Below the pieces are notes generated by a model. It did not search any database, had not been told where the DNA came from, and saw only the letters and a program-made list of their open reading frames with translations. The position numbers and the translations under genes were made by a program. From assembly GCA_000182565.2 (NCBI GenBank), contig KQ257468.1: a stretch of DNA of 64,000 nucleotides; one strand, 5' to 3'. The DNA comes from Spizellomyces punctatus DAOM BR117. Its lineage: Eukaryota. Positions 4,151 to 43,863 of the stretch are shown here, piece after piece. The first letter of the stretch is position 1. Each line of letters begins with the position of its first letter.

Positions 4151-7100
4151 TTAGGTCTTGCCCGCACACAACACCTGAATCTTTTCAAAAAGCTCCTCCT
4201 TATCATACGGCTTCACAACCCACTCATCCATACCAACCTGCATAGCTCGTTCCAAATACGCTCCTCTGGCATTCCCAGTAACAGCAACAATGGGTACCCT
4301 CCCAACAAGGACCCCCTCCTTTTCCCAAGCCCGAATCCGTTCGGCAGCACCTAGTCCATCCAAAATAGGCATTTCGAGATCCATGAGAATGATATCGTAT
4401 GTGGTTTGCCGGAGCATGTCGAGGGCTTCTTGGCCGTTATTGGCGATATGGGATGTATGGCCTTGACGATCTAGATGGCGTTTTAGGACTTTTTGGTTCA
4501 CGAGGTTATCTTCTACTATAAGGATTTTGTAAACGTTTTTGCTAGTATCGAGTCGTGGTGGTTTTGTTGTTGTTGTTGTTGTTGATGGTGTACATTGTCG
4601 GACGAGAACTGTAAATGTCCATTCTGTATTGGAGGGGTTGGAAAGCACCGTCATGGTCCCACCCATGAGTTCCACGATACGTTTCGAGACGAATAGACTT
4701 AGATTTGGGGAATTGTAGTCTGTGTAGGTTTTATGGGTTGTTGGGAGCGTAAGGTGGTTTCGTGTTGGTGTTGTTTCGACGAGTTTGTAGATTAGGTAGA
4801 GTGTATTATCGAGGTTGGATGTGTCGATGGTGACGGTAATGTGTTTTGTGTGGGCGGTTTCGAGAGAAACGAGGGCGTTGGAGATTAGGTTCATGAGAAC
4901 TTGGGAGATACGCATTGGATCTCCCGTAACGTTTTCCAGAGTGTTTTTGATATGAATCTCCCATTGAATGTTTTTGGTTTTCATTTCGTTTACGAGTTCC
5001 ATGTGGGGGTCGAAACGGGTGTTGGTTAATACGAGGAGGTCAAAACCTAATTTGGAGACGTTGAGAACGTCGTCTGCGATTTTTTTTTGGTGGCGGGCGC
5101 AGAGTGTTATTGTTTTTGTTGCTTCGAGGTTGTTTGCTAGTTCGGTTTTTAGCCAAGTGTCCTTTTCGTCGTTTTCATTCTCGTCAGTGTCGTGATGAGA
5201 GTGACGAGATGAATCCTCCTCCAATCGCTCCCGTATCCGCTCCAAACTCGCTTGAATCAAATCCGCACTATTATAAATCCCATTCAAAGGATTCCGCCAC
5301 TCATGACAGGCCATATCAATAAACCTTTCCTGCTGTTTCTTGACATGTTCAGCATCTTCTGCTCGTTTGCGTAATTGTCGTTCAACAAGTTGCATGACTT
5401 GATATTTCTCTCGTTCGAGTTTTTTCGTAATGCTTAGATCGGTTATACTGCCTACGGCGCCTAGGACGTCTGTACCATTTTTTTCAATGGTCCATTGAGC
5501 GAGGCACCAGCGTTCTGTACCGTCTGGATAGTTTTTTGCCCAGCGGAATTCCATTTTAAAGGGTGTCCCCTTTGCAAGACTTTTATTCCAACTGGCAATG
5601 ACTTGGTCCTTATCATCGGGATGAATGGACATTAAATGGTGTCGACAGTCGGGATCGAGCGTTTTATCATGTCCAGTGATTTCCCACCATTTGTCGTTGG
5701 TGTATGTAACGGTTCCGTCCACGGTGGTACGGAATATACCCACTGGAGCAAGATTGGCGAGGGTTTTGTACCGGGCTTGACTTTCTGCTAATGATTTGGT
5801 TTGGATGTCGATACGGTTTTGCAGGGATTTACGGAGGTGGCCTAGTTCGAGGTGGGTTGTGATTCTTGCGACGAGTTCTTTGGCGCTAAAGGGTTTGACG
5901 AGGTAGTCGTCTTCATAAACAAAAGAATGTCAACTTTTTCCATCCAAGGGTATTATAAACAAAAAACTCGTTCATTTGTTGTTTTCTTTTTTTTTTTTGA
6001 CTTACCGGCACCTGCATTCAACCCCTCATAAAGTGCCTCAGCACCCGCTCGAGCACTCACCAAAATAACCGGCAAACATCTCGTCTCATTCCGACTCTTT
6101 AGAGCCTTTATCAACTCAAATCCATCCAACCCAGGCATCATCACATCCGATAGAACCAAATCGGGTGGATCGGATAATGCGAGTTGGAGGGCTTGGGTTC
6201 CGTCTTTTGCGTGGGTTACGCGCCAGTTTTGGTGTATTAGGAGTGAGGTGATGTAGGACCTTATATCTGCGTTATCGTCTACCAAGAGGATTCTGGGTCG
6301 ATTTGTTGTGGTTGTGGTTGTGTTGTCGGGTAAAGAGGGCGGAGAAGACTCTTCATCATTCCACGTTTCTAAATCTTGTACAAAAGTCCTCGCAAAACTA
6401 CTAGGCCCGTCTTGTCGTTTCTCAGATTCGATTTGACTTGGTAAATGCTCCCTCCCGACTGGAATCACGACTTGGAACGTACTCCCCTCCCCAAGGACAC
6501 TCGAAACCCTAATACTCCCTCCATGGAGTTTAACGAGTTCATTGGCGAGTGCTAACCCGATTCCAGTTCCTTCTCCGCCACGTCCCTTGTGGTTTTGGAT
6601 TGTGTGGAATCTGTCAAAGAGTTTGGGGAGGTGGTCCGCGGGGATTCCTAGACCTGTGTCGGTTACGGAAAAGTAGATTTGGGTGTCGGTTCGGGTGAGT
6701 GTAATGTGGATCTTGCCTTGAAGGGTATACTTGTATGCATTGCTATTTTAGAAAATACAAGTTTTGTTTTGTTTTTGGTTAACTAGAGTCTTTATCGGCG
6801 GTAATAAAAAACAAATAAAAAAAAACATACCTCACAAGATTAAACACAATCTTCTCCCACAACTCTGCATCGACCCACACACCCCCAACCTCATCACACT
6901 CTACACAAAACTCCAACCCAGCCTTCTCAACAGCAGCCCGAAACACACTCGCCAAATCTCTCGTAAGGCATCCTAAATCCGTTTCACGAAACACACCTTG
7001 CATACCACCCGCTTCAACTTTGGATACATCCAATAGGGAATTCACCATTTTTAATAACCGGGTTCCGTTTTTGGTGATTGCTACTAGGTGGGATTTTAGG

Positions 7101-13683: not shown

Positions 13684-16301
13684 TTTGAGAGAGAGAGAAG
13701 GAAGGAAGGGAGGAATATTCTATAATCTACAAGTGGTAATAGAAAAGAGAGGGAAATGCTGCGAGTCCCCCCCTTATATATGGGTGGAATTTCCCGTTTT
13801 CTTGTTTTGAAACGGCCGCTTGTGTTTTTTTTTGCCAGTGGCCAGTTGTGTGTGTGTGTGTGTCTTCTTTCCAAAGCGGTCAACAAAAAGAACGCGTCTC
13901 TCAACACAGAAAGAATTTTCAATACTTCTAAAATTATTCCCATTTACAGATACAACGCCCTCCAAAGAGAGGGGGCGCTTCCTTTTTGAAAAGGAGAGGA
14001 ATATTCCGCAACCACTGCCACCCTTTGATTCTATTTCTGGCATTCCATTCATTCTATTTTGGGAATTTCTATGATTTTCATGTATTGTTACTCATTCTAT
14101 ATTCAACTTTCAACAAGCGGCTGGGGGGGAGGCATATCGGAACTCTCCTGTCAATATGGCCTATCCCACATCCATGTATTCATATACATGTCAAGGTATT
14201 CAACTCGAGTCAAATTGTTTACCAGTTAGACAGAGCAGAAACATGGCAGTGCTGGCGTTTAATCCCGCCATAGCAACAGCTATAAAAGTTACTTTGACTC
14301 GAGTCGCATAACGTATGTACTCCTGGGTACTAAGAGTGTCTCACAGTGTCAATGTTTGGAAATATGTCAAACTGCGGGGGATATGCATCGAGAACACACG
14401 CACCGCCTCGATTCTGTTCCGTGGCTGAGTAATTGGCAAGATTTCACGGAATTCAAAAAACGAGAAAACGGATGATCTCCATTGGGTTTACACCGTTTAA
14501 TTGAAAAGGGGGGCGCGAGTGTATGTTCCTCGCGTTTGCCACTGGTGGGGGATGATTGACCATGGCCTAAATGCCCCCATTTTCACCTGAATACAAAGTA
14601 GAAAACATACAACGTGTTATGGGATGGTATATCAGACTTTATTGGGACATTCATACATGGATACTTTTGTGTGATGCGTACTGTGTGTAGGTGTATGGCG
14701 CGTATGAGGATAGCTTGCCAGTTGGCCCATTCAAAAGGTGTGAAACTCTTCCCAAAAGCCTCATTCAATAAGAAACCCAACTTTTATGGCAAAAATAAAA
14801 TACCAATATTGGCATCTCAAACCCACCCATTGACCTTTAGCCCCGAACTTTCACGCGTTGCGCGTCACTGCCACCACCCACATACAGACATTGTTTTTTT
14901 CTCATGATTACGACATTGTCATCCTTGCCTACAAGTATATAATCCATGCCCCCAACACACATACTCCTACAAAACCATAAGTTACGAATAATGACTAGAA
15001 TACAGTTTATTCCCAATATCACACGTATGACGACTCGGTTCACCTCGACTCACTCGTCAACACATGCGCGATATACTGGAACACGTAGCCGCGTTCGACC
15101 CATGAATGTCGTGCTGGGGTTGGGTGGTCTTGTGCTTGGGACGGCTGTGTATAGAGAGCTACACTGATGGGATTAGAGGATGTGATTGGAAAGGGTGCTT
15201 TGTAGAAGATGGGTTATGCATGACTGCTCCTGCCATTTATGGCTGAGATGGCACAGTGAAGTGGATGGTTCAATAGACAAGACTTTAATCAGCACGTTCC
15301 CTAAAGTACCAAAGATCAATGACGGGATCCTGTTCGTATAGACAACCAGTCGATGGACTCTCTGGTATGGTCAATGATTGGGGTTTAACTAAAACGTGCT
15401 ACAATTTCGAAAAGGAACAAAGAAAACACATAGTAAAGAGCCGTTGCTTGTATTCCCTTGGCTGGTGGCCTTCCAACAACTCGTGCGTAGGGCACCGTAG
15501 TTGATTCCTTGGCAGCATGGTGAAGATCATCTAGGTTTCTGAATGCCCATAAGCCGTGAATTGGCCGCAATTCCAGTCAAGAGAGTCGTTTGTCCACGAT
15601 GAATATTCACTGATCAAGCTCAGCAGTCCATCTGCCACGAATATCATTCACTGCGAACCGCTTGTTAGGATCGGCATCACATGATCCAGGCTCTGCGACA
15701 GAAAGCACGTGACCAAGACGGAGCAAGCAAAGATCGTCTGTGTCCGTCAACCAATTCTTTCTTTCTCTCTCTCTCGCATCTCACTTACGACGGGATCTAT
15801 CCATCCATCCATCCGTTGTCGAGGTTCGTTTTCATCCTCCCATCCATCGAGTGTTCAATGAGTGCTACCTACACTACCCGATCCTTTGACCATTGAGCCA
15901 AGAGAGCAAGATGTGAACGAAAGCCTGAGCACTCGCAAGAGTGGCCCATGTGATGGAGTGTAAAAAACAATTTCGACAACAGAAGCAGTTTCTACCAAGT
16001 ACGCCATTCTCCACCATGCGAGCTTTGATTTTATTTCAAAGGACTGCGAAAAACAAACGAAAACAGAAACTGCTTCAGGAATCACATTGGCGCTCATTAG
16101 CTGGCCATTGTGACACTCTTGATGGGCAGTCCCTAAACTTTGCAAAAGAGGGGGCTCTTAGGAATCGTTTTGCACTTTCTATGGCCGTGGGTGGTGTAGT
16201 TTGCGCAACGACACTCCTATTGGAGCAAATCTTGTCCTTACGCAGTCTAATGTCAAGCTCATGATCTAACTCGCTGTTATTTTTTTTTCTTTTAGATCAA
16301 A

Positions 16302-17003
16302 ATGGTTCGCATCTCTGTCCTTAACGACTGCCTAAAGAGCATTGTCAATGCCGAGAAGCGCGGAAAGCGCCAGGTGCTCGTCCGCCCTAGCTCCAAGGTC
16401 ATTGTCAAGTTTTTGTCGGTCATGCAAAAGCACGGTAAGTTGGCCTGACGTGATCACCAAAAACGAGTTTTGGGGAGTGTGTATGATTCGAAGTTATAAC
16501 TGGATGCTTGTCGGACACTGTGGGCAGATGTCTTTTAATGCTTCGATATAAAGACAGAGTGTACTTACACCCCACGTCTTTATCACCTATGGGCGGGGGG
16601 TTTATATACGCACAACATATGAATGCACAGATGCGCATCGTTTACATGATGATGGAACAATCACTCATGACTATTTCTCATAAAGGCTACATTGGCGAAT
16701 TCGAGATCATTGACGACCACCGCTCCGGCAAGATCGTCATCCAACTTATTGGTCGTCTCAACAAGTGCGGAGTCATTTCCCCCCGCTTCAACGTGAAACA
16801 AAAGGACATTGAGACTTGGATCAACAACCTTTTGCCCTCTCGTCAGTTTGGGTACATTGTCCTGACCACCTCTGCTGGTATCATGGACCACGAGGAGGCC
16901 CGTCGTAAGAAGACTGGTGGCAAGGTGTGTATGGTGTTTCTTCTTTGTTGGATATATGGGATTTTTTCTGACGTGTTGTTAGATCCTTGGATTCTTTTAC
17001 TAG
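16302..17003 (+). CDS. RPS22: 40S ribosomal protein S22/S15a (uS8)
   Basis: Exons 16302-16434, 16686-16924, 16983-17003: [29 protein letters not shown]...[20 protein letters not shown]...GGKILGFFY*. A 5'UTR intron ends at 16295 (ctaac...tttag). Confidence 0.97.
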
Positions 17004-18081
17004 GGGTTGAGCACTGTCGGCTTTGGTAGAGTGGGATCCGTCAGAGACTTGTTGTATCGCATTCTGCTGTGGCTTTCATAATACATTGAATTGTGTATAT
17101 TTATTTTCTTTATCTTAATGATGGGTGTGGCGACTACGCCGTATCGTAAAGAGGGAGTGTTCCGTGGTGGGGATACGGGAGCACAGCACTCTCGTATACT
17201 AGGACTTATGGCTGTCATGCTGACATGTTTTACAGTACATCGGCGCTTACTAGTGTGTATTTTGAGGAAGTTTTGAACAGGACGAATGTTAGTCTGTGGA
17301 TTCGGAATATGGGGTACTCTGTAGAATCAGGTACTGGCGTGATCTCACATGACTAAACGCATCGATAAATCTTTGATGACGCGGACAGTCGAAGTTCATC
17401 ATCCATCGTGTTTTCCTCTACATTAATACATATCAAAAACTAGTTTAACATGCTTTAAAAATGCAGAAAAACAGGTGGGATATTTTCTATGCATCGGATA
17501 ATAACTTCTGTGTATGTACTTTGTCACATACCCGGCAATATTTGATGTTCTAGCCTAATGGAAGTCTGTGCAAGTGTCGGCCAATGTCCAATTGAGATTT
17601 TGGGGGTTATACTTGATTTGTACCCGTACTACGGAGTACGGTACCCGGAATGTGCATGGCTACCTATTTGATTATGATTACGGGGGTTGGGGTGCTTGTG
17701 ACTGATTGGCGGGCGATCAAGGAAAATGGATTTTGTACTGGGTATGGACAACTGGCAGTCTTGCCTTTCGATGACTAAATGTGAGATACACTATTCCTTG
17801 ATCATGGGACCAACGACTTTGATACACATATCTTCATGTTAGAACGGATGTGCAATATGTGAAAAGGCACAATGAGATCATTTCAGAGGTTTAACGCGTT
17901 CATGTCCGGATGTTATAATCTACGCGATTAGTTCTGTCCGGATGTCATGCCAATTCCTTAAAACGAGGCCTCGTGGGAAACATCCCCTAAATAAATCTTT
18001 TGCCTCACAATCTGCTTCAAAACTTTCTCAAAACTTGTTGAATATTTTTTGGCTTCAGGTGTCGTCGAGTAGACCACAACC

Positions 18082-21000
18082 ATGGCACGCAATGCAGAGA
18101 ACACGCAGATTGGAGGGACCTTGGTGAAAGACCTTCCCTGTGATGTTGCATTGAATTATTTTCGCATATGCTCGCCGTATGAGAGTACGCCCAATGTGCA
18201 GGAACTGGGCGATATGCTCGCTAATGCCATCTACGCACATTCCCAACGGGAGGATGGCCGAGCGGACAATGGTCAACTTGTGAACTTTAATGTCCCGGAT
18301 GCCGGTGAGTCCAGAAATCGAAAAAGCACTACTAATCGAGACTAAAATAATCTCTTAGACACTGTAATGGCTTGGACGCGGGAAGTCTCTTTGGCCGAGA
18401 TTTTCTCTAAAGGAACAGGGATCCGCACTTTAGTCATTCCTGTTTACCAGAGGCCGTACACTTGGGGACGGACGGTTGTCAAGCGCTTACTAGGGGACAT
18501 TTATGAGGCTTTCAGTATTAATAAAAATAAACCGTATTTTATCGGAAGCATCGTGCTGAACGACAGTCATGATCTTTTGGACGAAGATGGGAACGAGGGA
18601 GAATTTAGCGTTGTGGATGGTCAGCAGCGCCTGACTACATTAATGTTAATATTTGCTGGTTGTCGATCACTGTGCAGCGAGTCCACGCAGGATGAGGTAG
18701 GTGTGCTTCTGACGATCCGCCTTTAACGACGGAACGAATAAGTATTCCACCATTCAGATTCAAGACTACCTCGAGCATTCACCGAAATTTAAGCGGCTGT
18801 ATCATTTGCGAGAGGGGCCTGGACCAGAGATATTTCGAAAGTACGCGATGCAAAACAAGGAAAATATTGCAGATGCAGCAAACGAGGATAATTCGGGAAA
18901 AAATGCCCAAGAGGCTCGTACATTGGTAGATGCAATGACCGCCATATATGAAGAGTTGGAAGAACGTACCGAGCAACTGGAGACCAATGAGGCGGACGAG
19001 TTCCTTGCGAGTTTCGCTGATTATGTCTATAGTCGATGCCGTATGATTTGCATGACCGGCGCAGGGGAACGCGGCGGTCATCGAATTTTTAGTACGTTGA
19101 ACGTATGTGGGGTTAAGCTGGATGTACTTGACTTCGTAAAGGTAAGTAAACAAAGGCATGCGCCGTGGGCTCACCCATCCTAACAACAACAACGGTCGAC
19201 AGGCAAGTATCTACACACATGCTATCATGGAGTTTAACGACAGTCAGGCGACACGTAGCCGACGAAACTTCAATGCCACAATCCAAAAAGGGATGAACGC
19301 TTGGAACGCCGTTGAGGACAAGCTACGGCGATGGCCGAGTGGTATGCACAGTGGTTTGACAAGGTTCCACGACCTTTTCCTGCATTTCTACCGTCTTCAC
19401 TTGGTGTGGCTATGCGCCGACGTCTCTTACCGGGGGAGCTGCATTGGCGATTCATCAAAAGAGGAAAAAGAGGACCACTTCCAGACTCTCTACATGGACA
19501 GTTTCTCAGCGACGACGATGTCAGAAACAGATCGATATGCTCCTATGTACAGCTGGTGTGGGGACGTTGCTGACATAAAGAGCGCTATACCCCGTCTCAA
19601 TTTCGAGATCACGATGCAACTCATCAAGGAAATCGGATCTCATTTTTACCAAATTGTCATCACTTATGCTAGCAGTCGTGGCAGCACGGTTGACGGCTTA
19701 CTAAACCTGGAAAAAAAACTTTTAAACTGCGAGAAGTGGCAATTGACCTACTCCTTGTGGGTCACAATTGCACTTGCTGCAATGCAACGTCTCGCCAAGC
19801 TATCCAAAAGGAAAGGCGGTGCAACTACTGGACAGCCTGCCTTTTGGACATATCTTGAAACGCTGATGGTTGCATACATGTTGGAGATAGAGGCTAAAGA
19901 AGACTTTGCTGAACATTTACTAAGGAGGTCTTTCGAAGACCTGAAGAAGATCGTGACAGCTGCAAGAGTTGAAGACATCATTGAACAGCTGTCTCTGCGG
20001 CATGCACCGCGCGAAGGACGCCGATACAGCGAAGCGGCTGAATTCCTTAGGAGAATCAAAGAAAATGTCTACAAAACTTCCGGACCCTTCGCAACGAAAT
20101 ATCTTCTCGTTCGTTTAAATACGTGCTCATACGAACGGCCGGATTGTCAACCATACGAGGTAAACTGGAAACTGACCGAAGTGGAGCACCTGCTTCCAGT
20201 GTCGCTCGATCAGCCTGACGACGGTTGGCCAGGGTGGACGGCCAAGCAAATCAAGGATGCCAAAAACAAGCTTGGTAATCTGCTGTTACTTGGTCCTGGA
20301 CAAAACAAAGAACTGTCGAATAAGGCATTTCAAAAAAAGCAATCGCTTTATCTGAGGTCATCACTGGGTCCTTGCCCTTTTGCCATTACGGTCCGACGTG
20401 CTGGGTTGGACAGCTGGACTTATGATGATTTTGAAAGGGAGCAAAACGATATTATCAAGAGGCTACAGAAAGTTTTCATGACTCCGGCCTCCCCAGTCCA
20501 GGCTGGGGCTTCAGGATCAATACAGGATATGCATCCGCATGATGTCCAATATGCGGCTGCTGACTCGGGGGAGAATATACATTGGCAAGGTTCGACTGGC
20601 GCCAGCGGCTTGCCGGGGGTCCAAATGCCGTCAGCTCAAGCAGAGCTGTCACCTGCCAATTTGTTCTCTGATCCCAGCACGGCCGCGGAAGACGACCATG
20701 ACAGCCACGCGGCGACTGTGATGGCAGAATCAGGAGAGAATGGGCAAGGCGCTGCTGCCGCTGACATCCTGCCACGAGCACCTCCGCTGTCAGCGCAAGC
20801 AGAGTTGTCACTTGATTCTGTCATTCTCACCTCCATGGACGTCGCCGTGGAGAAAGATGTCTCTGACGATGACGCGGAAAACGAACTGGGAGAGAGAATA
20901 CTAGCCCAACAGTTGCAAGAAGATCAGGTTAGATATATGCAAGAAAGGCAGACTGTTGGTGATGATGTTCGACCTTGTCCAGAGAAATGCTACAAAGAGA

Positions 21001-21455
21001 GAGTCGCAACAGCCACATGTTCAGGAACAATCACTGCGAATGAATCTCATTGCCATTTATGTCACTGGATCGAAAGCGGCGGACAATGTTCGAAGACACC
21101 ATCTGAAGGAAAGAAATTGTGTATCGATCATAACCGGCTGCTTCACTCTTGTGCCCAACATCTTTTCGTCGGAAAGAGCAACTCTCCGAGCCACAGGATC
21201 TGCTACCGTCCTCATGTGCCGGGCCGTGAGTTTCGCGGAAAGCACGCGTGCGATCAATGTCACCATTGCAAGGCGCGCTCTCGGATCGCATGTAAAGAGC
21301 CTTCCACCAAAGACGATATTTTTTGTGTTGAGCATAGGAAACATTTCGACAGTTTGAAGGACGCTGCTAGAAGTCGCAGACAGAAGGCTGATGAACGCAA
21401 ACGGAAAAAACGTCAAAAGTCCCAAGATAGTTCCAAGCGAGCTAAGCCTTCTTAG
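18082..21455 (+). CDS. DUF262 + DUF1524(HNH) GmrSD/SspE-like protein with C-terminal Cys/His zinc fingers and basic tail (~1065 aa, 4 exons)
   Basis: Exons 18082-18304, 18359-18696, 18758-19141, 19203-21455 splice in frame via GT-AG introns. DUF262 motifs IPVYQRPYTW, YFIGSIVL, VVDGQQRLTTL, IFSTLNVCGVKL; DUF1524 motifs TEVEHLLP and NKLGNLLLL...NKELSNKAFQKK. Confidence 0.88.
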
Positions 21456-22076
21456 CGGATGCTGATAAATGCAAGTGGAAACAATTCCAAAGTTCTTTAA
21501 AAGAGTTCCAAGATAGCCACGTCGTCATTAGCTGACTTTGAGAGTGGGAACACTGTGTTACATGTCTTCATCTCTCCCGTATTCTTCTTAAGCAGCCCTG
21601 ATAGGCAAGTTGCTTATCTGCTACTGTTACGACAGGGTATCTGAACCACAGTGGTTATGGGCAGCATAAACAAATACATCATCACAGTACATGCCTTCAT
21701 CTCTCCCGCGTGTGTGATGGGCCTTTTGAGGAGGACTTGTGTATATTGGGCGTAGTAGTGCTCGGTTGAGATTGGGATTGTCATTGTCGTAAACTTGCGA
21801 ATTTGGCACTTTGGTCCTGCAAGTTCGTACTTTATAAACACTGGAGAAATTGGCCAGCAATCGTGGCAGCACCTTACTACCTTTAAAGAAATTAGTACAT
21901 GTGCTGTGCGAGACTATGACTTGAATTCCAGATGATCCGGCTAGCAACTGTGACAGCATTCCACTTGACCATTTTATCGGCCGCTGTCAGATGGCTACCA
22001 GAATACATGTGTCAGACAGCGAAAAAAGTATAGAAAGTGACGATCGAAAATAAAAAGGCAGTGGATCCTCGTTGAA

Positions 22077-22159
22077 CTCCCAGACGGGGAATCGAACCCC
22101 GATCTTCCCCGTACTGTCAATTTGACAGGGGGAGATACTAACCATTATACTATCTGGGA
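22077..22159 (-). tRNA. tRNA-Asp(GTC) with ~11-nt intron
   Basis: Reverse complement TCCCAGATAGTATAATGGTTAGTATCTCCCCCT-GTC-A[AATTGACAGTA]CGGGGAAGATCGGGGTTCGATTCCCCGTCTGGGAG forms a cloverleaf with A/B boxes; intron at the canonical 37/38 position. Confidence 0.93.
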
Positions 22160-22953
22160 CTTGTATTCCTTGACTTTATGGAACACCATATGGTATGCAA
22201 GGCCTGGCAGTCCTGTACGGAAGGGATGCTGGTATGAAATGCCGCTGACGAAGCAAAGGACAATTGGGTGTTATTTGTCGAACCCCGATTTTTGTTTTAT
22301 GCAACATATTTTTGGACAAGATCCTGTTTTTAAGGGGTTTCATTGTATGTGGTTTGTTGTATGCGTATCAGATCTTGCATACCTTACAAGTTTGACTTTT
22401 ATGATAATCGTATCCTTGTTTGCCAAGTGTTCAAACAAGAAATGATTTGTGTTTGTGATGTGTACATGCCCAGCCCATCATATTTGTACTGAATGCGAAT
22501 ACGTTTTTCGTTATGATGCAAAAGGAACCTTTACATATCCTTCAAAAAAAGAAGTTTATCATCATCGTGTCTGGATTAAAGTTTTAGGTTTCCAAGGGAT
22601 GTGATATTCCTTTGATGAGATGAGCGGATTCTGAACTATCCGACCCATATAGATATAAATGATATCCAAATAGCCATGTTGAATAAACCCACATTGCATT
22701 CTCCATCCATCTGGCCGTTGTCCTTATCTAACAACCCTCCCCAATTTCACCAAATACAAGTGTTCCCCTTTAAACCCTTTAACCAACTCAGCCAGTCACG
22801 TCATACCATCCACGTGACAAACCACATGACCATCTTTCCTTCTCTGTGCCGCCCCTTCATAAGCGGGCTGGTGTGCAATCCCCCCATCCATCTCCCGTAA
22901 TCCTCGCTTGGAACCAACCGCCGACGCCATCTTGTAAAATATTGGAATTGACA

Positions 22954-23368
22954 ATGAATACCCCTACGGCAAAGAAAACGCGTACGGATGTACACTCGCC
23001 TTCCATGACCCATTCTCAGCGGCCGCAGATTCCTGGGCAAATGCAGGCTCAGTTAGTCAAGTAAATGTGAAAAACGAGTGGTGTAATTGTATGTACTGTT
23101 TGTCTAATTCTTTTTTGTTTTTTTTGGTATAGTTTGGGGATGCGGGTTCGTAAATGTGAGTTACAAAATAAAGGATTGACACGAGATGCGGTTTACTGAT
23201 GTTGTTTGTTTTGTAGCAATCGCGGATGGATACAAAACACCCAATAAACCCATCTACGGCATGCCCCAATCAACCGATATTACACCCCCCAAACATGAAC
23301 AAACACAAAACCCTAGGAAACGGGGACTTATTACGGATTTTTTTGGACCGCAAGAGAATGGGCAGTAG
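22954..23368 (+). CDS. Spd1/Dif1/Hug1-family ribonucleotide reductase inhibitor (~93 aa, 3 exons including a 23-nt micro-exon)
   Basis: Exons 22954-23060, 23133-23155, 23217-23368 give ...RPQIPGQMQAQLVNLGMRVRKSIADGYKTP..., matching the Hug/RNR-inhibitor motif of S. pombe Spd1 (VGMRVRKSISTGYK). C-terminus RKRGLITDFFG. Confidence 0.85.
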
Positions 23369-23652
23369 TTTTTATGTTTTGTTTGAGAAGGATGTGGGTT
23401 CGAGTCCTATATTCCTTTTATTTTCTTGTATTTAGTGGTTGCGAGTTGGAGTGGGCATACCGTGGATGAGTAAGAGTGGTTTTGTGTACAGTGTTGGCTT
23501 GGGACAATGTGGGAATCGAAAACATTAAAGACAAGGGAATATATTTCGCTTCTTTACTAAAAAAAAATCCAAAATGTAAACCATATACGTTTTCTTTTCG
23601 TCGTTTGCTATCTTCTTTTTTTTTGCTAGTCAAGCTCGTCCTATTCCGATTC

Positions 23653-25605
23653 TCAACCCTTGTGCTCCACAGGCACCGTCACAAGATTCCCATTCCTAAC
23701 CGTCGTCTTAAATTGCTCCGAAAGGGGTTTCTCCGTGTAATCCCCATCAGCACCCTGCACAAGCACATTCATTTCTGAACTCTTTGCCGTAAGGATCTCA
23801 ATATCCAACGTCTCTTTGGAAAGGTACAATTGTAATCCGTCCGTTTTGTCAATCGCGACCGTAGGTGCTTTGCCGGTGATTTGGACTTGGGCGGATTTGG
23901 TGTTCACCACGTCGATCGTTGAGACCACGTTCTCGACTAGGAGGCCAACCTTTCTGGAGCCATCTATAAACATACACGATAGAATCGTCAATCAAAACCA
24001 AATCTTTTGTTCTTTTCAAAATTGTTCAATAAAAGGACTTACCGATCGTAACGGCATTAACCTTGCCCTTGATTTGAATCGTACAGTTTTGGCAATTGTA
24101 AATATAAACAACATGCCTCAATTCCGTTTGATCTATAATGATTTCATTGTTGTTGACTTGGTTCTCCTATTTGGTTTTATCGCACATTTTATTAAATGGT
24201 TCGTTTTGAATCACGCAGTGGGTTAGGAAGAACTTACCACCACCCACTTGTTGCCTTCAAGAGCAAGCTTTGGAGGGGCCTTGAGTGCTGCAGCAGGTCT
24301 TGCAGACGGAGCTGTTAAAACAGAAAGAGTGAGATGGATGGCCGCCATTTGCCCTTGTTCTCTTTTTTTTTTTTACCTGCAGCGCCTCCTCCGGTACCGC
24401 TCTTGACGATACTGGATGCTCGAAGTTCGGGGTTCTTGTGCGTCATTTCAGATTTATCCACCTTTCGTAAACCTAGAACATAATCACACATTACCAAAGT
24501 GACATTAGAAAATGGAAAAGTGGACATTACGCACCGCTGGTGAGACCTTCCTTGTTCAACTCGCTAAACAATGCAGCGGTAGGTGGGGCGCCTCCTTGCG
24601 AACTGGTTGGGAGAATCCCGACAGCCGGTGGTGGGGGTGGAGCTGGGGCACCGCCACGGGTAACAGGTGCAGGAGCAGCAACTGGGAAACCCAATTCCAT
24701 CAGATGTAAATCTAACTAAAACGAATCTGTTCATTCATACCGCTGGCGGACTTTGCATCTCCTCCACGCGGGTTCCATGACAACCCTGTGGTATGGTGCT
24801 TTTTAACATATGTCTGCAGTTCGGTCAAAAAGGTCACAAAGCTGTTGGCCCAGTCAACGTGACTCTTGTCCCTGCATCAAAGTAAAACAGTATTAAACGG
24901 GATGAATTTTGATGATCAATGAGAATGTCATCTACGCACTTGTCCTTGTACTCTTTGATAACACGGTTAGCCCAAAATTGTGCAGAATCCCTCATTTCTC
25001 CAACGAATGGCGCAGGTGCAGGTTCCTGTGGTGCACATACGTTCATACATTAGCATTAACAACGTAGTGACATACATCTACGTTTAAATAACTTACCACA
25101 ACCACCCATCCCAAACCAGGAATACCCTCACTAACGGTAGAGAGATGGTTATAAAACGGGCTGGCCCGATTTTTCTCGCGCAGTTCCGTAATCTTTGTAA
25201 TGGCAGCCTGCGTGGGTTTCAGCAATTCCTGCAGAGTGGTCGTATCGGGTTTCTTGGACGCCGCGGCGACCTGAATGAGCGCTTTCTGGGCTTGAATGGC
25301 TTCGCGTACGCTCTCGGCCTGTTTTGATAGAGCTAGCTTAGCAGAAAATCCTCAACATCATAGTATATTTATCATACCTGTTCCTTGACCAAACCGCCAA
25401 TAGCTGCACTACCGCTGACATACACTTGGAGCGGTCCACCAACAAGGTCCTCAAATGCAGTAATACTTGGACCACCACTACCAGCAGACGAAACTGGAGC
25501 TGACGGAGCAGCTTCCGCAGATTTACTCCGGCCAGCTACTTCCTCGATACGTTGCGTGGCCGCTTCGAGTCGCTTGATGAGGGATGCAAGGGTTGCTTCA
25601 GACAT
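23653..25605 (-). CDS. SRV2: Adenylyl cyclase-associated protein (CAP/Srv2), multi-exon
   Basis: LIKRLEAATQRIE (RLE motif); NHLSTVSEGIPGLGWV; DSAQFWANRVIKEYKD; polyproline; GLRKVDKSEMTHKNPELR; C-terminal CARP repeats ending SSEMNV...EQFKT...TVPVEHKG. Confidence 0.95.
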
Positions 25606-37114: not shown

Positions 37115-37186
37115 AGGTCCCACCGAGAATCGAACTCGGGTCGCAGGATTCAGAGTCCTGAGTGCTAACCGCTACACCATGGAACC
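37115..37186 (-). tRNA. tRNA-Gln(CTG)
   Basis: Reverse complement GGTTCCATGGTGTAGCGGTTAGCACTCAGGACT-CTG-AATCCTGCGACCCGAGTTCGATTCTCGGTGGGACCT, 72 nt. Confidence 0.95.
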
Positions 37187-43791: not shown

Positions 43792-43863
43792 GGTTCCATG
43801 GTGTAGCGGTCAGCACTCAGGACTCTGAATCCTGCGACCCGAGTTCGATTCTCGGTGGGACCT
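43792..43863 (+). tRNA. tRNA-Gln(CTG)
   Basis: GGTTCCATGGTGTAGCGGTCAGCACTCAGGACTCTGAATCCTGCGACCCGAGTTCGATTCTCGGTGGGACCT, with a T-run terminator downstream; 1 nt different from the copy at 37115-37186. Confidence 0.95.

What the first reader, a model, noticed from the sequence alone, without database searches (positions are those of the whole stretch)
18082..20480. Intron-containing fungal gene with bacterial GmrSD/SspE anti-phage restriction architecture (DUF262 NTPase + DUF1524 HNH)
Seen: four exons splice in frame to ~1065 aa. All three DUF262 motifs are present (YQRPYTW ~18445, VDGQQRLTTL ~18613, FSTLN ~19087), followed by a DUF1524 His-Me nuclease (EHLLP ~20184; LGNLLLL...N...SN ~20271-20320). 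Known: DUF262+DUF1524 fusions are prokaryotic type IV restriction/defence enzymes (GmrSD and BrxU cut modified phage DNA; SspE acts with phosphorothioation) and are not a standard fungal family. Three canonical introns and intron-rich fungal neighbours argue against contamination. Inference: a horizontally acquired, domesticated modification-dependent nuclease, possibly an innate defence against DNA viruses or other foreign DNA. The usual N-x-R-G reads N-V-C-G here, which may alter NTPase coupling.
Basis: partly seen in the sequence, partly recalled or inferred. Interest (0 to 1): 0.92.

Follow-up and report, generated by a model that had tools for sequence, protein, structure and literature searches.

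The report
Bacterial-type restriction nuclease gene in a chytrid
A soil chytrid fungus carries an intron-containing gene for a bacterial-type anti-phage restriction nuclease (GmrSD-like) that has gained eukaryote-style additions, so it may be a bacterial immune tool kept in use by a fungus, though no activity has been shown.

Summary
Four exons (18082-18304, 18359-18696, 18758-19141, 19203-21455) splice to a 1065-aa protein identical to SPPG_08139 of Spizellomyces punctatus. It has GmrSD_N (E 7.5e-28) and GmrSD_C (E 1.3e-16), and every family-defining motif is intact (QR, VDGQQR, FxxxN, E-H-N-N). That extra part encodes a low-complexity tail, a Cys/His module with two C-x2-C...C-x10-C-x2-H repeats, and a basic cluster.

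It is not an orphan. A paralogue (SPPG_03059) and relatives in Geranomyces variabilis and Rhizophlyctis rosea, plus four unnamed proteins, form one clade (100/99 support). Bacterial sequences are its nearest neighbours on every tree. GC3 matches neighbouring genes, and two introns lie inside the N-terminal domain. The best reading is an old bacterium-to-chytrid transfer followed by duplication and domestication.

The function is inferred: a nuclear, NTP-gated HNH nuclease or nickase that tells DNA apart by its modification state. The polarity is open, because characterised relatives include enzymes that cut modified DNA (BrxU, GmrSD) and enzymes that sense a self mark and cut unmarked DNA (SspE, DndI). 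Splice junctions were not seen in RNA because coverage was too thin. Earlier surveys had already counted eukaryotic members of this family. I rate interest as moderate.

The parts
18082..18304 (+). Exon 1 (aa 1-74 plus the first base of codon 75); non-conserved N-terminus
   Evidence: The model equals NCBI SPPG_08139. No significant similarity to a relative, so this is the least supported exon.
18305..18358 (+). Intron 1, 54 nt, GTGAGT..TAG, with an in-frame stop
18359..18696 (+). Exon 2 (aa 75-187): first half of GmrSD_N, with YQRPYTW (18445-18465) and VDGQQR (18613-18630)
   Evidence: Pfam on the exon alone gives E 3e-22, profile 2-77 of 199. Motif coordinates.
18697..18757 (+). Intron 2, 61 nt, GTAGGT..CAG, inside the DUF262 domain
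   Evidence: The Pfam match becomes continuous only after removal.
18758..19141 (+). Exon 3 (aa 188-315): second half of GmrSD_N, with FSTLN (19088-19102) and NVCG (19100-19111)
19142..19202 (+). Intron 3, 61 nt, GTAAGT..CAG, inside the DUF262 domain; splicing restores the conserved ...D-x-x-K|A...
   Evidence: The alignment to intronless bacterial relatives has no gap across K315|A316.
19203..21455 (+). Exon 4 (aa 316-1065 plus stop TAG)
   Evidence: ORF 19146-21455.
18394..19211 (+). GmrSD_N / DUF262 ParB-like NTPase domain, aa 87-318 (spans introns 2 and 3)
   Evidence: Pfam PF03235, E 7.5e-28, 98.4 bits against a cut-off of 33.2.
19212..20036 (+). Linker, aa 319-593 (275 aa), with W349 invariant and E353 and W501 nearly invariant (shared with bacterial relatives)
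   Evidence: Alignment A3, 99 sequences. Linkers of 200-400 residues are typical of the family (PMC4619093 passage).
20037..20459 (+). GmrSD_C / DUF1524 His-Me (HNH) nuclease domain, aa 594-734: E643-H644 (20184-20189), N674 within LGNLLLL (20271-20291), N683 (20304-20306), S687-N688 (20316-20321)
   Evidence: Pfam PF07510, E 1.3e-16, 61.2 bits against a cut-off of 23. Residue counts.
20493..20972 (+). Low-complexity tail, aa 746-905, rich in A, D, S, Q, G and E
   Evidence: Composition. Relatives in the clade have similar acidic tails. No Pfam match.
20973..21344 (+). Cys/His-rich module, aa 906-1029, with two C-x2-C-x(8-10)-C-x10-C-x2-H repeats (21051-21131 and 21249-21335); putative zinc-binding
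   Evidence: Regex scans. BLASTP to the C-terminus of P0009 gives E 6e-5. No match in Pfam, PDB sequences or the Atlas.
21399..21419 (+). Basic cluster KRKKRQK (aa 1048-1054); putative nuclear localisation signal
   Evidence: Read directly from the sequence. The role is inferred.
21456..21700 (+). 3' flank with the highest RNA-read depth, possibly the 3' UTR
   Evidence: Run X4 gives depth 14.9 and 21.5 (first mate on +) against 0-1.2 over the exons. Which transcript these reads belong to was not resolved.

Best explanation
This is SPPG_08139 of the chytrid Spizellomyces punctatus. It is a chromosomal, intron-bearing descendant of a bacterial GmrSD-like defence gene (DUF262 ParB-like NTPase, helical linker, DUF1524 HNH nuclease). 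The gene entered an ancestor of the Spizellomycetales/Rhizophlyctidales chytrids, duplicated into two subfamilies and was domesticated. Domestication shows in host-like base composition, spliceosomal introns inside the catalytic domain, and a eukaryote-type C-terminal extension (low-complexity tail, Cys/His module, basic cluster).

Proposed mechanism, by analogy with characterised relatives. The protein enters the nucleus. The DUF262 domain binds and hydrolyses NTP through the DGQQR motif. The nucleotide cycle, tuned by the chemical state of the bound DNA, licenses the HNH domain (E643/H644/N674/N683) to nick or cut DNA that differs in modification from the host's own. That would make it a genome-defence nuclease against DNA viruses or other invading DNA.

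Shown here: gene structure, domain content, intact motifs, clade membership, and bacterial nearest relatives. Inferred: transfer direction, nuclear location, enzymatic activity, dependence on DNA modification and its polarity, and the defence role.

My odds: bacterial origin and long residence about 0.9; active NTPase/nuclease about 0.7; defence role about 0.45.
For: Gene and family. The spliced product is identical to P0001/SPPG_08139. GmrSD_N and GmrSD_C score well above the Pfam cut-offs. The best PADLOC matches are HEC-06 (E 6e-45) and 'Orf5' (8e-36), then SspE (1.9e-22). QR, DGQQR and F...N are present in 385 of 386 aligned relatives, the target included; the one exception is the N-terminally truncated model P0002. 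The target also keeps E643, H644, N674, N683 and N688.

Clade. P0003 (Geranomyces variabilis), P0004 (Rhizophlyctis rosea) and P0169 (S. punctatus SPPG_03059) were named, and P0002 (G. variabilis). The orders were checked. The nine-member clade (5 named chytrid proteins and 4 unnamed) has 100/99 support and appears in 100% of 200 bootstrap trees. It was also recovered, and seven of the nine rows present grouped there too. Its neighbours are P0039 and a group containing Nesterenkonia and Saccharothrix (supports 90/86 and 90/95). GmrSD_N is found in 8 of 8 and GmrSD_C in 7 of 8 clade members scanned.

The family is overwhelmingly prokaryotic. There are 9016 representatives at E<=1e-3, and apart from the three chytrid entries the source names are bacterial (most rows carry no name). 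A published count gives 12124 bacterial against 263 eukaryotic sequences (PMC5714182 Table 1).

Long residence. GC is 0.49 and GC3 0.50, against 0.46-0.55 for 13 of the 14 other long ORFs in the window. Two introns lie inside DUF262. No flanking repeats were found. Neighbouring genes are eukaryotic.

Eukaryote-type additions. C-x10-C-x2-H occurs in 3 of 9 clade members and in 1 of 377 other relatives. The Cys module is shared with P0009 at E 6e-5.

Mechanism precedents, from passages read. In BrxU, nucleotide binding and hydrolysis precede HNH cleavage, and DGQQR and D-H mutants lose defence (PMC8565348). In HEC-06, Q79A/R80A and E471A/H472A mutants lose defence (bioRxiv 10.1101/2024.01.29.577857). 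DndI is an ATPase and nickase (PMC11662687).

Plausible targets exist: giant DNA viruses infect zoosporic fungi (PMC13533422).
Against: No activity, localisation or phenotype data exist for any member of the clade, and I found no paper on them.

Splicing was not seen in RNA. The one RNA run laid gave depth 0-1.2 over the exons and listed no joints, so the junctions rest on the annotation, the stops in the introns and domain continuity.

The Arg of N-x-R-G is Cys here and is absent from all 8 clade members that have the N-domain. Its role is unknown.

One clade member (P0141) has lost the catalytic E-H, reading D-R instead, and lacks a GmrSD_C hit. So at least one lineage keeps the protein without a nuclease, which fits a non-nuclease role.

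Four of the nine clade members are unnamed, so calling the clade 'eukaryotic' is shown for five and inferred for four (long tails; the shared Cys module in P0009).

The tree is unrooted. The claim that the clade is nested among bacteria rests on midpoint rooting and on this set being only the nearest 386 of more than 9000 relatives.

dN/dS could not be computed because no chytrid genome is held.

The census of eukaryotes is incomplete. The last profile search did not even list four of the five proteins of its own query alignment among the best 120 of 3415 hits shown.
Confidence: 0.5

Rival explanations
1. Same origin, different job. The protein has been re-used for an endogenous nuclear task, such as DNA repair, processing of the fungus's own modified bases, chromatin regulation or programmed DNA cleavage. 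The Cys/His module would target it to particular DNA or chromatin, and it would not serve defence.
For: It is flanked by housekeeping genes with no defence-type context. The clade has conserved eukaryote-specific C-terminal additions. The gene has been kept as two old paralogue lines in at least two orders. A nuclease-dead relative, P0141, is retained. ParB/Srx-fold domains have been re-used in eukaryotes before, as with sulfiredoxin (PMC4619093 passage).
Against: All catalytic motifs of both domains are intact in the target and in 7 of 8 clade members scanned. Every characterised relative is a defence enzyme. The narrow, patchy distribution is more typical of conflict genes than of core repair factors. 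Nothing here ties the gene to a repair pathway.
Confidence: 0.25
2. It is cargo or a relic of a mobile element or an integrated virus (for example a giant-virus insertion or a transposon), and serves the element rather than the host.
For: GmrSD-like genes travel on mobile elements in prokaryotes (PMC4619093 conclusions passage). Integrated giant viruses exist in zoosporic fungi (PMC13533422). One IMG/VR contig encodes a distant relative at 25% identity.
Against: No direct or inverted repeats flank the gene within 14000-25000. The nearest neighbours are a ribosomal protein gene and a tRNA gene. Base composition is host-like. Only two paralogues from this genome appeared in the protein searches. 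The single viral hit looks like a contig of a virus of prokaryotes, with dense ORFs, and is no closer than the bacterial relatives.
Confidence: 0.07
3. It is a decaying or functionless leftover of an old transfer, open by chance and little expressed.
For: RNA depth over the exons is very low in the one run laid. The Arg of N-x-R-G is lost. Gene models of some relatives look truncated; P0002 lacks the N-domain and ends at the start of the Cys module.
Against: A 3198-nt reading frame across four exons stays open, with all family motifs intact. Orthologues at 45-54% identity (P0001 and P0002) and 68% identity (P0169 and P0003) keep the same motifs. The clade has gained and kept new modules.
Confidence: 0.08
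4. It is bacterial contamination or a chimeric assembly.
For: The domain architecture is otherwise almost entirely prokaryotic.
Against: There are three GT..AG introns, each with an in-frame stop. The contig is 511 kb. Eukaryotic genes lie on both sides. Composition is host-like. Contigs from three further public runs cover 18257-19001, 18382-19362 and other parts with no differences; their kind is unknown and they may come from the same strain. Relatives occur in three chytrid genera.
Confidence: 0.01

Closest known systems
HEC-06 (PADLOC models PDLC04154/04155/04157), a stand-alone GmrSD-like antiphage protein of bacteria
   Same: Best-scoring defence model (E 6e-45; all 8 of 8 clade members match). 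Same DUF262-linker-DUF1524 order. Both have DGQQR and an E-H nuclease motif (EHICP in HEC-06, EHLLP here), and mutating these abolishes defence in HEC-06 (bioRxiv 10.1101/2024.01.29.577857, passages).
   Different: HEC-06 models are about 560 aa, prokaryotic and embedded in defence systems. The chytrid protein is 1065 aa and intron-bearing, with an N-terminal extension, a low-complexity tail, a Cys/His module and a basic cluster. The Arg of N-x-R-G is replaced.
DndI of Salmonella enterica Cerro 87 (PDB 9JFL)
   Same: Closest solved structure by sequence. The target alone gives E 1.9e-8. The subfamily profile A3 matches it end to end (E 7.3e-60, profile 9-564, chain 3-595). It is a DUF262 ATPase with DGQQR plus an HNH nickase and forms a homodimer (PMC11662687).
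   Different: DndI works with IscS-DndBCDE phosphorothioation, senses the self mark and spares self DNA. No such partner is known or expected in a chytrid. The sensing Tyr (Y25, equivalent to Y104 here) is nearly invariant across the subfamily (at least 90% of 99 sequences), so it does not indicate phosphorothioate sensing.
SspE (PDB 6JIV/7DRS)
   Same: DUF262 GTPase plus DUF1524 nickase. PADLOC SspE models match at E 1.9e-22, and the PDB sequence match is E 8.3e-7 for the target and 3.8e-37 for the profile.
   Different: It depends on SspABCD phosphorothioation. The match covers mainly the first 80-100 residues of the N-domain.
BrxU (PDB 7P9K) and E. coli GmrSD (Eco94GmrSD, EcoCT GmrSD): classical type IV, modification-dependent enzymes
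   Same: Same two Pfam domains and motif set. The reaction logic, with the NTP cycle preceding HNH cleavage, is the template for the proposed mechanism (PMC8565348; PMC4619093).
   Different: These are much more distant. BrxU matches the subfamily profile only at E 4.4e-6, and the PADLOC type IV model mREase_IV matches only at 3.9e-8. They cut 5mC, hmC or glucosyl-hmC DNA, and nothing here shows that specificity.
Chytrid paralogue line B: SPPG_03059 (S. punctatus), HDU89_000947 (G. variabilis), HK097_009813 (R. rosea)
   Same: Same clade (100/99) and same domains. They also lack the Arg of N-x-R-G, reading N-V/I-P-G. They carry acidic tails, and SPPG_03059 also has C-x10-C-x2-H near its C-terminus.
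   Different: Only about 25% identical to the target. They are shorter (686-796 aa). They have a conserved N-terminal motif that the target lacks.

Membership tests
GmrSD-like family (Pfam PF03235 + PF07510; motifs of Machnicka et al. 2015, Table 2) | N-terminal DUF262/GmrSD_N domain above the Pfam gathering score | tested here: met
   98.4 bits against 33.2; aa 87-318; profile 2-198 of 199.
GmrSD-like family | C-terminal DUF1524/GmrSD_C domain above the Pfam gathering score, in the order N-domain, linker, C-domain on one polypeptide | tested here: met
   61.2 bits against 23; aa 594-734. The linker is 275 aa, inside the 200-400 range quoted in PMC4619093.
GmrSD-like family | GmrS motifs QR, (I/V)DGQQR and FxxxN | tested here: met
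   Q105-R106, V160-D161-G-Q-Q-R165 and F298...N302. Each column is identical in 385 of 386 aligned relatives. Motif list from PMC4619093 Table 2.
GmrSD-like family | GmrD motif E/D-H-N-N (His-Me finger) | tested here: met
   E643 (E in 379 of 386), H644 (381 of 386), N674 (369 of 386), N683 (381 of 386).
GmrSD-like family | NTPase activity and NTP-dependent DNA cleavage | not testable with these tools
   Needs biochemistry. Inferred from the motifs only.
Type IV (modification-dependent) restriction enzyme in the strict sense (GmrSD, BrxU) | Cleaves only modified DNA (5mC, hmC, glc-hmC) | not testable with these tools
   No sequence signature for substrate choice is known; the BrxU authors found no modification-binding pocket (PMC8565348 discussion passage). 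Similarity to BrxU and to the mREase_IV model is weak.
Type IV restriction enzyme / prokaryotic defence gene | Prokaryotic host and defence-island or mobile-element context | tested here: not met
   Eukaryotic chromosome with introns. Of 17 neighbouring ORFs scanned, none is a defence or DNA-modification gene. It is therefore a relative of this kind, not a member of a prokaryotic defence system.
SspE / DndI (phosphorothioate-sensing) | Partner PT-modification genes (sspABCD or iscS-dndBCDE) in the genome | not testable with these tools
   No whole genome is held. None were seen among the 17 window ORFs scanned.
SspE / DndI | PT-sensing Tyr in the N-terminal hydrophobic patch (DndI Y25, SspE Y30) | tested here: inconclusive
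   Y104 aligns with DndI Y25. But this Tyr is nearly invariant across the subfamily (at least 90% of 99 sequences), so it does not discriminate.
BrxU subgroup | RLFDS nucleotide-binding/dimer-switch motif | not tested
   The motif is said to be absent from HEC-06, EcoCT GmrSD and SspE (bioRxiv 10.1101/2024.01.29.577857). I made no residue-level alignment to BrxU.
Eukaryote-like (chytrid) GmrSD clade defined here | Groups with named chytrid proteins to the exclusion of bacterial relatives | tested here: met
   Nine rows with 100/99 support, present in 100% of 200 bootstrap trees. Also recovered; the seven of the nine rows that were included grouped together.

The most novel reading that the evidence does not exclude
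Chytrids run a restriction-modification-like self/non-self system in the nucleus. The DUF262 NTPase would read the fungus's own abundant DNA marks (6mA and/or 5mC) as a 'self' signal, as SspE and DndI read phosphorothioate. The NTP cycle would then release the enzyme from marked host DNA, while unmarked incoming DNA (giant viruses of zoosporic fungi, transposons, transforming DNA) is nicked or cut by the HNH domain. The Cys/His module and basic cluster would be the eukaryotic adaptations that bring the enzyme to nuclear DNA. Passages of PMC13533422 report that integrated giant-virus DNA in Allomyces carries less 6mA than the rest of the chromosome, which is the kind of contrast such a system could read. 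High 6mA in chytrids is recalled, not checked here.
Probability: 0.08. Interest if true: 0.9.

Novelty: new variant of a known kind. Interest (0 to 1): 0.55.

Why it matters
Several animal, plant and fungal immune modules are now traced to bacterial anti-phage systems, but restriction-type nucleases that judge DNA by its chemical marks are treated as a prokaryotic speciality. This locus is a full-length GmrSD-like enzyme with intact catalytic motifs. It has lived long enough in chytrids to gain introns, duplicate, and acquire a probable zinc-binding module and a nuclear-import-type signal. If it is active, it would be a concrete, testable case of restriction-like DNA discrimination in a eukaryotic nucleus, in a group of fungi now known to host giant DNA viruses. 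From recall, and not checked here, S. punctatus can be transformed, so the idea could be tested directly. If the protein has instead been re-used for a host task, it would show how a defence nuclease is tamed. The finding is tempered by three facts: the protein is already in databases as a 'DUF262 domain-containing protein', eukaryotic family members have been counted before, and nothing about function is shown.

Tried and rejected
1. RNA evidence. The look-up of sequencing runs listed no RNA holder.

2. Laying reads. I laid one RNA raw-read run of the same species label (X4, about 6% of it read) and three contig sets of unknown kind. No joints were listed. Exon depth was 0-1.2 and a joint needs 3 reads, so splicing remains untested. 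X1-X3 contigs run unspliced through introns 1-3 and are probably DNA.

The fold of the Cys/His module is unknown.

No whole genome is held, so there was no paralogue scan, no synteny, no dN/dS and no search for partner genes.

5. Census. The profile search with the five chytrid proteins showed no further eukaryote-named hit in the best 120 of 3415. It also failed to list four of its own five query proteins, so it says nothing about absence.

6. Viral contigs. One locus at 25% identity on a contig of a virus of prokaryotes, judging by its dense ORFs. No giant-virus link.

7. Genome contigs. Only 3 loci (Halorubrum, a nanohaloarchaeon, a verrucomicrobium), too few to name a donor.

8. Metagenome contigs. 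Of 80 loci kept, none was closer than about 30% over long spans. L017, whose match stopped exactly at the exon 2 end, turned out to be one uninterrupted AT-rich ORF, so it is not an intron-sharing relative.

9. C-terminal module. There was no significant hit in Pfam at E up to 10 (best PF12772 GHBP at 0.013 and a Tet-like 2OG domain at 0.13, both far below their cut-offs), none in PDB sequences at E up to 10 and none in the Atlas. A resemblance to plant WRC zinc fingers that I recalled was not supported by Pfam and is dropped.

10. Exon 1 against a clade relative (P0004): no significant match.

11. Donor lineage. Actinobacterial sequences sit in the nearest named group, but support is 90/95 and sampling is thin, so I make no donor claim.

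12. Literature. Searches found no study of fungal or chytrid GmrSD-like proteins.


Full report
WHAT IS THERE

Reading 17000-22500 and the stop-to-stop frames gives four exons on the + strand: 18082-18304, 18359-18696, 18758-19141 and 19203-21455. They are separated by introns of 54, 61 and 61 nt with GTGAGT..TAG, GTAGGT..CAG and GTAAGT..CAG ends. Each intron carries an in-frame stop, so all three must be removed. A script check shows that the spliced CDS is 3198 nt and translates to 1065 aa. The product is identical to database protein P0001, the NCBI model SPPG_08139 of Spizellomyces punctatus DAOM BR117, which is recorded on a 511-kb contig.

FAMILY

Pfam on the whole protein gives GmrSD_N (PF03235, aa 87-318, E 7.5e-28, 98.4 bits against a cut-off of 33.2) and GmrSD_C (PF07510, aa 594-734, E 1.3e-16, 61.2 against 23). 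Exons 2 and 3 alone match only profile positions 2-77 and 110-195. After splicing the match is one stretch covering 2-198 of 199. This is homology evidence for introns 2 and 3. The alignment to intronless bacterial relatives also runs without a gap across K315|A316.

Exon 1 has no significant similarity to a relative. Exon 1 and intron 1 therefore rest on the annotation and on splice-site logic, and Met78 is a possible alternative start.

The motifs that define the family in Machnicka et al. 2015 (Table 2, passage seen) are all present: QR, (I/V)DGQQR, FxxxN and E/D-H-N-N. These are Q105-R106, V160-R165, F298...N302, E643, H644, N674 and N683. In my alignment of 386 relatives those columns are near-invariant.

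NCBIfam has no model for the protein. PADLOC's best models are HEC-06 (E 6e-45), a model named 'Orf5' whose system the output does not give (8e-36), and SspE (1.9e-22). The type IV model mREase_IV scores only 3.9e-8.

Against PDB sequences the target alone hits 9JFL (E 1.9e-8), two entries labelled DUF262 proteins, and SspE. A profile of 99 relatives hits 9JFL end to end (E 7.3e-60) and BrxU only at 4.4e-6. 9JFL is DndI of Salmonella (PMC11662687, outline and passages).

After the nuclease domain come three further elements:
- A 160-aa low-complexity stretch rich in A, D, S, Q, G and E (aa 746-905).
- A Cys/His-rich module (aa 906-1029) with two repeats of C-x2-C-x(8-10)-C-x10-C-x2-H.
- A basic cluster, KRKKRQK.

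The module has no match in Pfam, PDB sequences or the ESM Atlas. It does align with the C-terminus of relative P0009 (BLASTP E 6e-5, Cys positions aligned). The core C-x10-C-x2-H occurs in 3 of 9 clade members and in 1 of 377 other relatives. I read the module as zinc-binding and the basic cluster as a nuclear import signal. Both readings are inferences.

RELATIVES AND ORIGIN

An exhaustive HMMER search of 1.84 billion cluster representatives found 9016 relatives at E<=1e-3 but only 3 at E<=1e-30. Word-indexed searches gave names for some of them:
- P0002 is Geranomyces variabilis HDU89_006152. It is 45-54% identical to the target and is a model lacking the N-domain.
- P0003 is G. variabilis HDU89_000947.
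- P0004 is Rhizophlyctis rosea HK097_009813.
- P0169 is S. punctatus SPPG_03059, on a 1.74-Mb contig.

These genera belong to Spizellomycetales (two families) and Rhizophlyctidales. There are therefore two old paralogue lines:
- Line A: SPPG_08139 and HDU89_006152.
- Line B: SPPG_03059, HDU89_000947 and HK097_009813.

The two lines are about 25% identical to each other.

Four trees were built:
- FastTree, 93 rows.
- FastTree, all 386 proteins in hand.
- IQ-TREE quick, 48 rows.
- IQ-TREE with 1000 ultrafast bootstraps, LG+G4, 48 rows and 551 columns.

All four place these five proteins in one clade together with unnamed proteins. The clade also holds P0009 (870 aa), P0056 (1053 aa), P0117 (780 aa) and P0141 (708 aa), which joined in each tree that included them. 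Support is 100/99 and the clade appears in 100% of 200 bootstrap trees. The order of branches inside the clade is unresolved.

The next neighbours are P0039, which keeps the bacterial-style N-A-R-G (90/86), and then a group containing Nesterenkonia and Saccharothrix (90/95).

The 48 rows were my own selection from the 386: the nine clade members, all named bacterial hits, and representatives of each major branch of the tree.

I could not name the four unnamed members because the listing of cluster members was off. They look eukaryotic: they have long N- or C-terminal extensions and acidic repeats, and P0009 shares the Cys module. That is inference.

Other points bear on origin:
- The family as a whole is overwhelmingly prokaryotic. 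Apart from the three chytrid entries, the source names are bacterial (most rows carry no name); the Atlas neighbours are 88-100% bacterial; and a 2017 survey counted 12124 bacterial, 174 archaeal, 28 viral and 263 eukaryotic sequences (PMC5714182 Table 1).
- GC (0.49) and GC3 (0.50) match the other long ORFs of the window.
- No repeats flank the gene.
- The neighbours are a Ribosomal_S8-family gene upstream (16487-17029), a tRNA-Ile downstream, and, further out, kinesin, C2, Cas1p-type acyltransferase, LRR, RhoGEF and hybrid histidine-kinase genes.

Together these make one old transfer from a bacterium into a chytrid ancestor, followed by duplication, the most economical account.

The caveats are these. 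The trees are unrooted. Four clade members are unnamed. The eukaryote census is incomplete, because the last profile search did not even show four of the five proteins of its own query alignment among the 120 rows listed. No donor can be named: the genome-contig scan returned only 3 loci and the metagenome scan found nothing closer than about 30%.

HOW IT PROBABLY WORKS

The characterised relatives share one scheme. The DUF262 domain binds and hydrolyses NTP through DGQQR, and the nucleotide cycle controls the HNH domain.
- In BrxU, nucleotide binding splits an intertwined dimer. Hydrolysis must precede cleavage, and mutants in DGQQR or in the D-H motif lose defence (PMC8565348 passages).
- In HEC-06, Q79A/R80A and E471A/H472A abolish defence (bioRxiv 10.1101/2024.01.29.577857 passages).
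- SspE and DndI are nickases whose NTPase is stimulated by phosphorothioate on self DNA. That stimulation releases them from self DNA, so unmarked DNA is attacked (PMC11662687).

The family therefore contains both polarities, cutting modified DNA and cutting unmarked DNA, and domain content cannot tell them apart. The Tyr that senses phosphorothioate in DndI aligns with Y104 here, but it is nearly invariant across the subfamily, so it decides nothing.

All eight clade members that have the N-domain lack the Arg (C, P, P, P, S, T, E/V, S). It is a clade trait of unknown meaning, not a clear defect.

My best account is a nuclear, NTP-gated nuclease or nickase that separates foreign from host DNA by modification state. 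Giant DNA viruses of zoosporic fungi are now documented (PMC13533422, listing and passages) and are plausible targets.

Two observations stand against a simple defence reading. One clade member (P0141) has lost the catalytic E-H and has no GmrSD_C hit. The added Cys/His module could equally target the enzyme to host chromatin for an endogenous task.

EXPRESSION

No RNA holder was listed. Laying one RNA raw-read run of the same species label (about 6% of it read) gave depth 0-1.2 over the exons, 3.7 at 21329-21455, and 14.9-21.5 at 21456-21700, mostly with the first mate on +. No joints were listed. At this depth that neither supports nor refutes the junctions. The pile just after the stop codon may be the 3' UTR in a 3'-biased library, or it may be another transcript. 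I could not tell.

WHAT IS KNOWN AND WHAT IS NEW

The protein is already in NCBI and UniRef as an uncharacterised 'DUF262 domain-containing protein'. Two surveys counted eukaryotic family members without discussing them: 3 eukaryotic organisms of 613, Thalassiosira oceanica being named (PMC4619093), and 263 eukaryotic sequences (PMC5714182). My literature searches found no paper on fungal or chytrid members. Supplementary lists were closed.

This analysis adds the following:
- The verified gene structure.
- The two-line chytrid clade.
- Clade-specific traits: loss of the N-x-R-G arginine, acidic tails and the Cys/His module.
- The point that the closest characterised relatives are HEC-06/DndI-like rather than classical type IV enzymes.

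I class it as a new variant of a known kind, of moderate interest until an activity is shown.

Noticed in passing
window 21456-21700: RNA-read depth of 15-21 (first mate on +) begins right after the stop codon, against 0-1.2 or less over the coding exons. It could be a 3' UTR seen by a 3'-biased library, or a separate transcript.
   Followed up: partly
window 21559-21579 and 21688-21708: A 21-nt direct repeat (95% identical, 129 nt apart) lies in the region just downstream of the stop codon.
   Followed up: no
window 22077-22159 (-): ARAGORN calls an 83-nt tRNA-Ile(AAT) gene with the anticodon at position 38, which suggests an intron. It lies about 620 nt downstream of the nuclease gene on the other strand.
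   Followed up: no
window 37115-37186 (-) and 43792-43863 (+): Two tRNA-Gln(CTG) genes lie in opposite orientation about 6.6 kb apart.
   Followed up: no
window 4154-6747 (-): Two adjacent long ORFs carry PAS, HisKA, HATPase_c and response-regulator receiver domains. They are probably exons of one or two hybrid histidine kinases.
   Followed up: no
P0141 (unnamed clade member, 708 aa): This N/K-rich relative keeps QR, DGQQR and F...N but has lost the catalytic E-H (it reads D-R) and the second Asn, and it has no GmrSD_C hit. It is a likely nuclease-dead member of the clade.
   Followed up: partly
P0002 (Geranomyces variabilis HDU89_006152, 548 aa): The model starts at the equivalent of target residue about 346 and ends just after 'CPEKCY', the first residues of the target's Cys module. 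The model is probably truncated at both ends rather than the gene being shortened.
   Followed up: no
window 21249-21452 (aa 997-1063): There is a weak, sub-threshold Pfam match of the second Cys repeat and basic tail to the N-terminal part of a Tet-like 2OG-Fe(II) oxygenase family (PF20515, E 0.13, 12.7 bits against a cut-off of 27). It is probably compositional.
   Followed up: no
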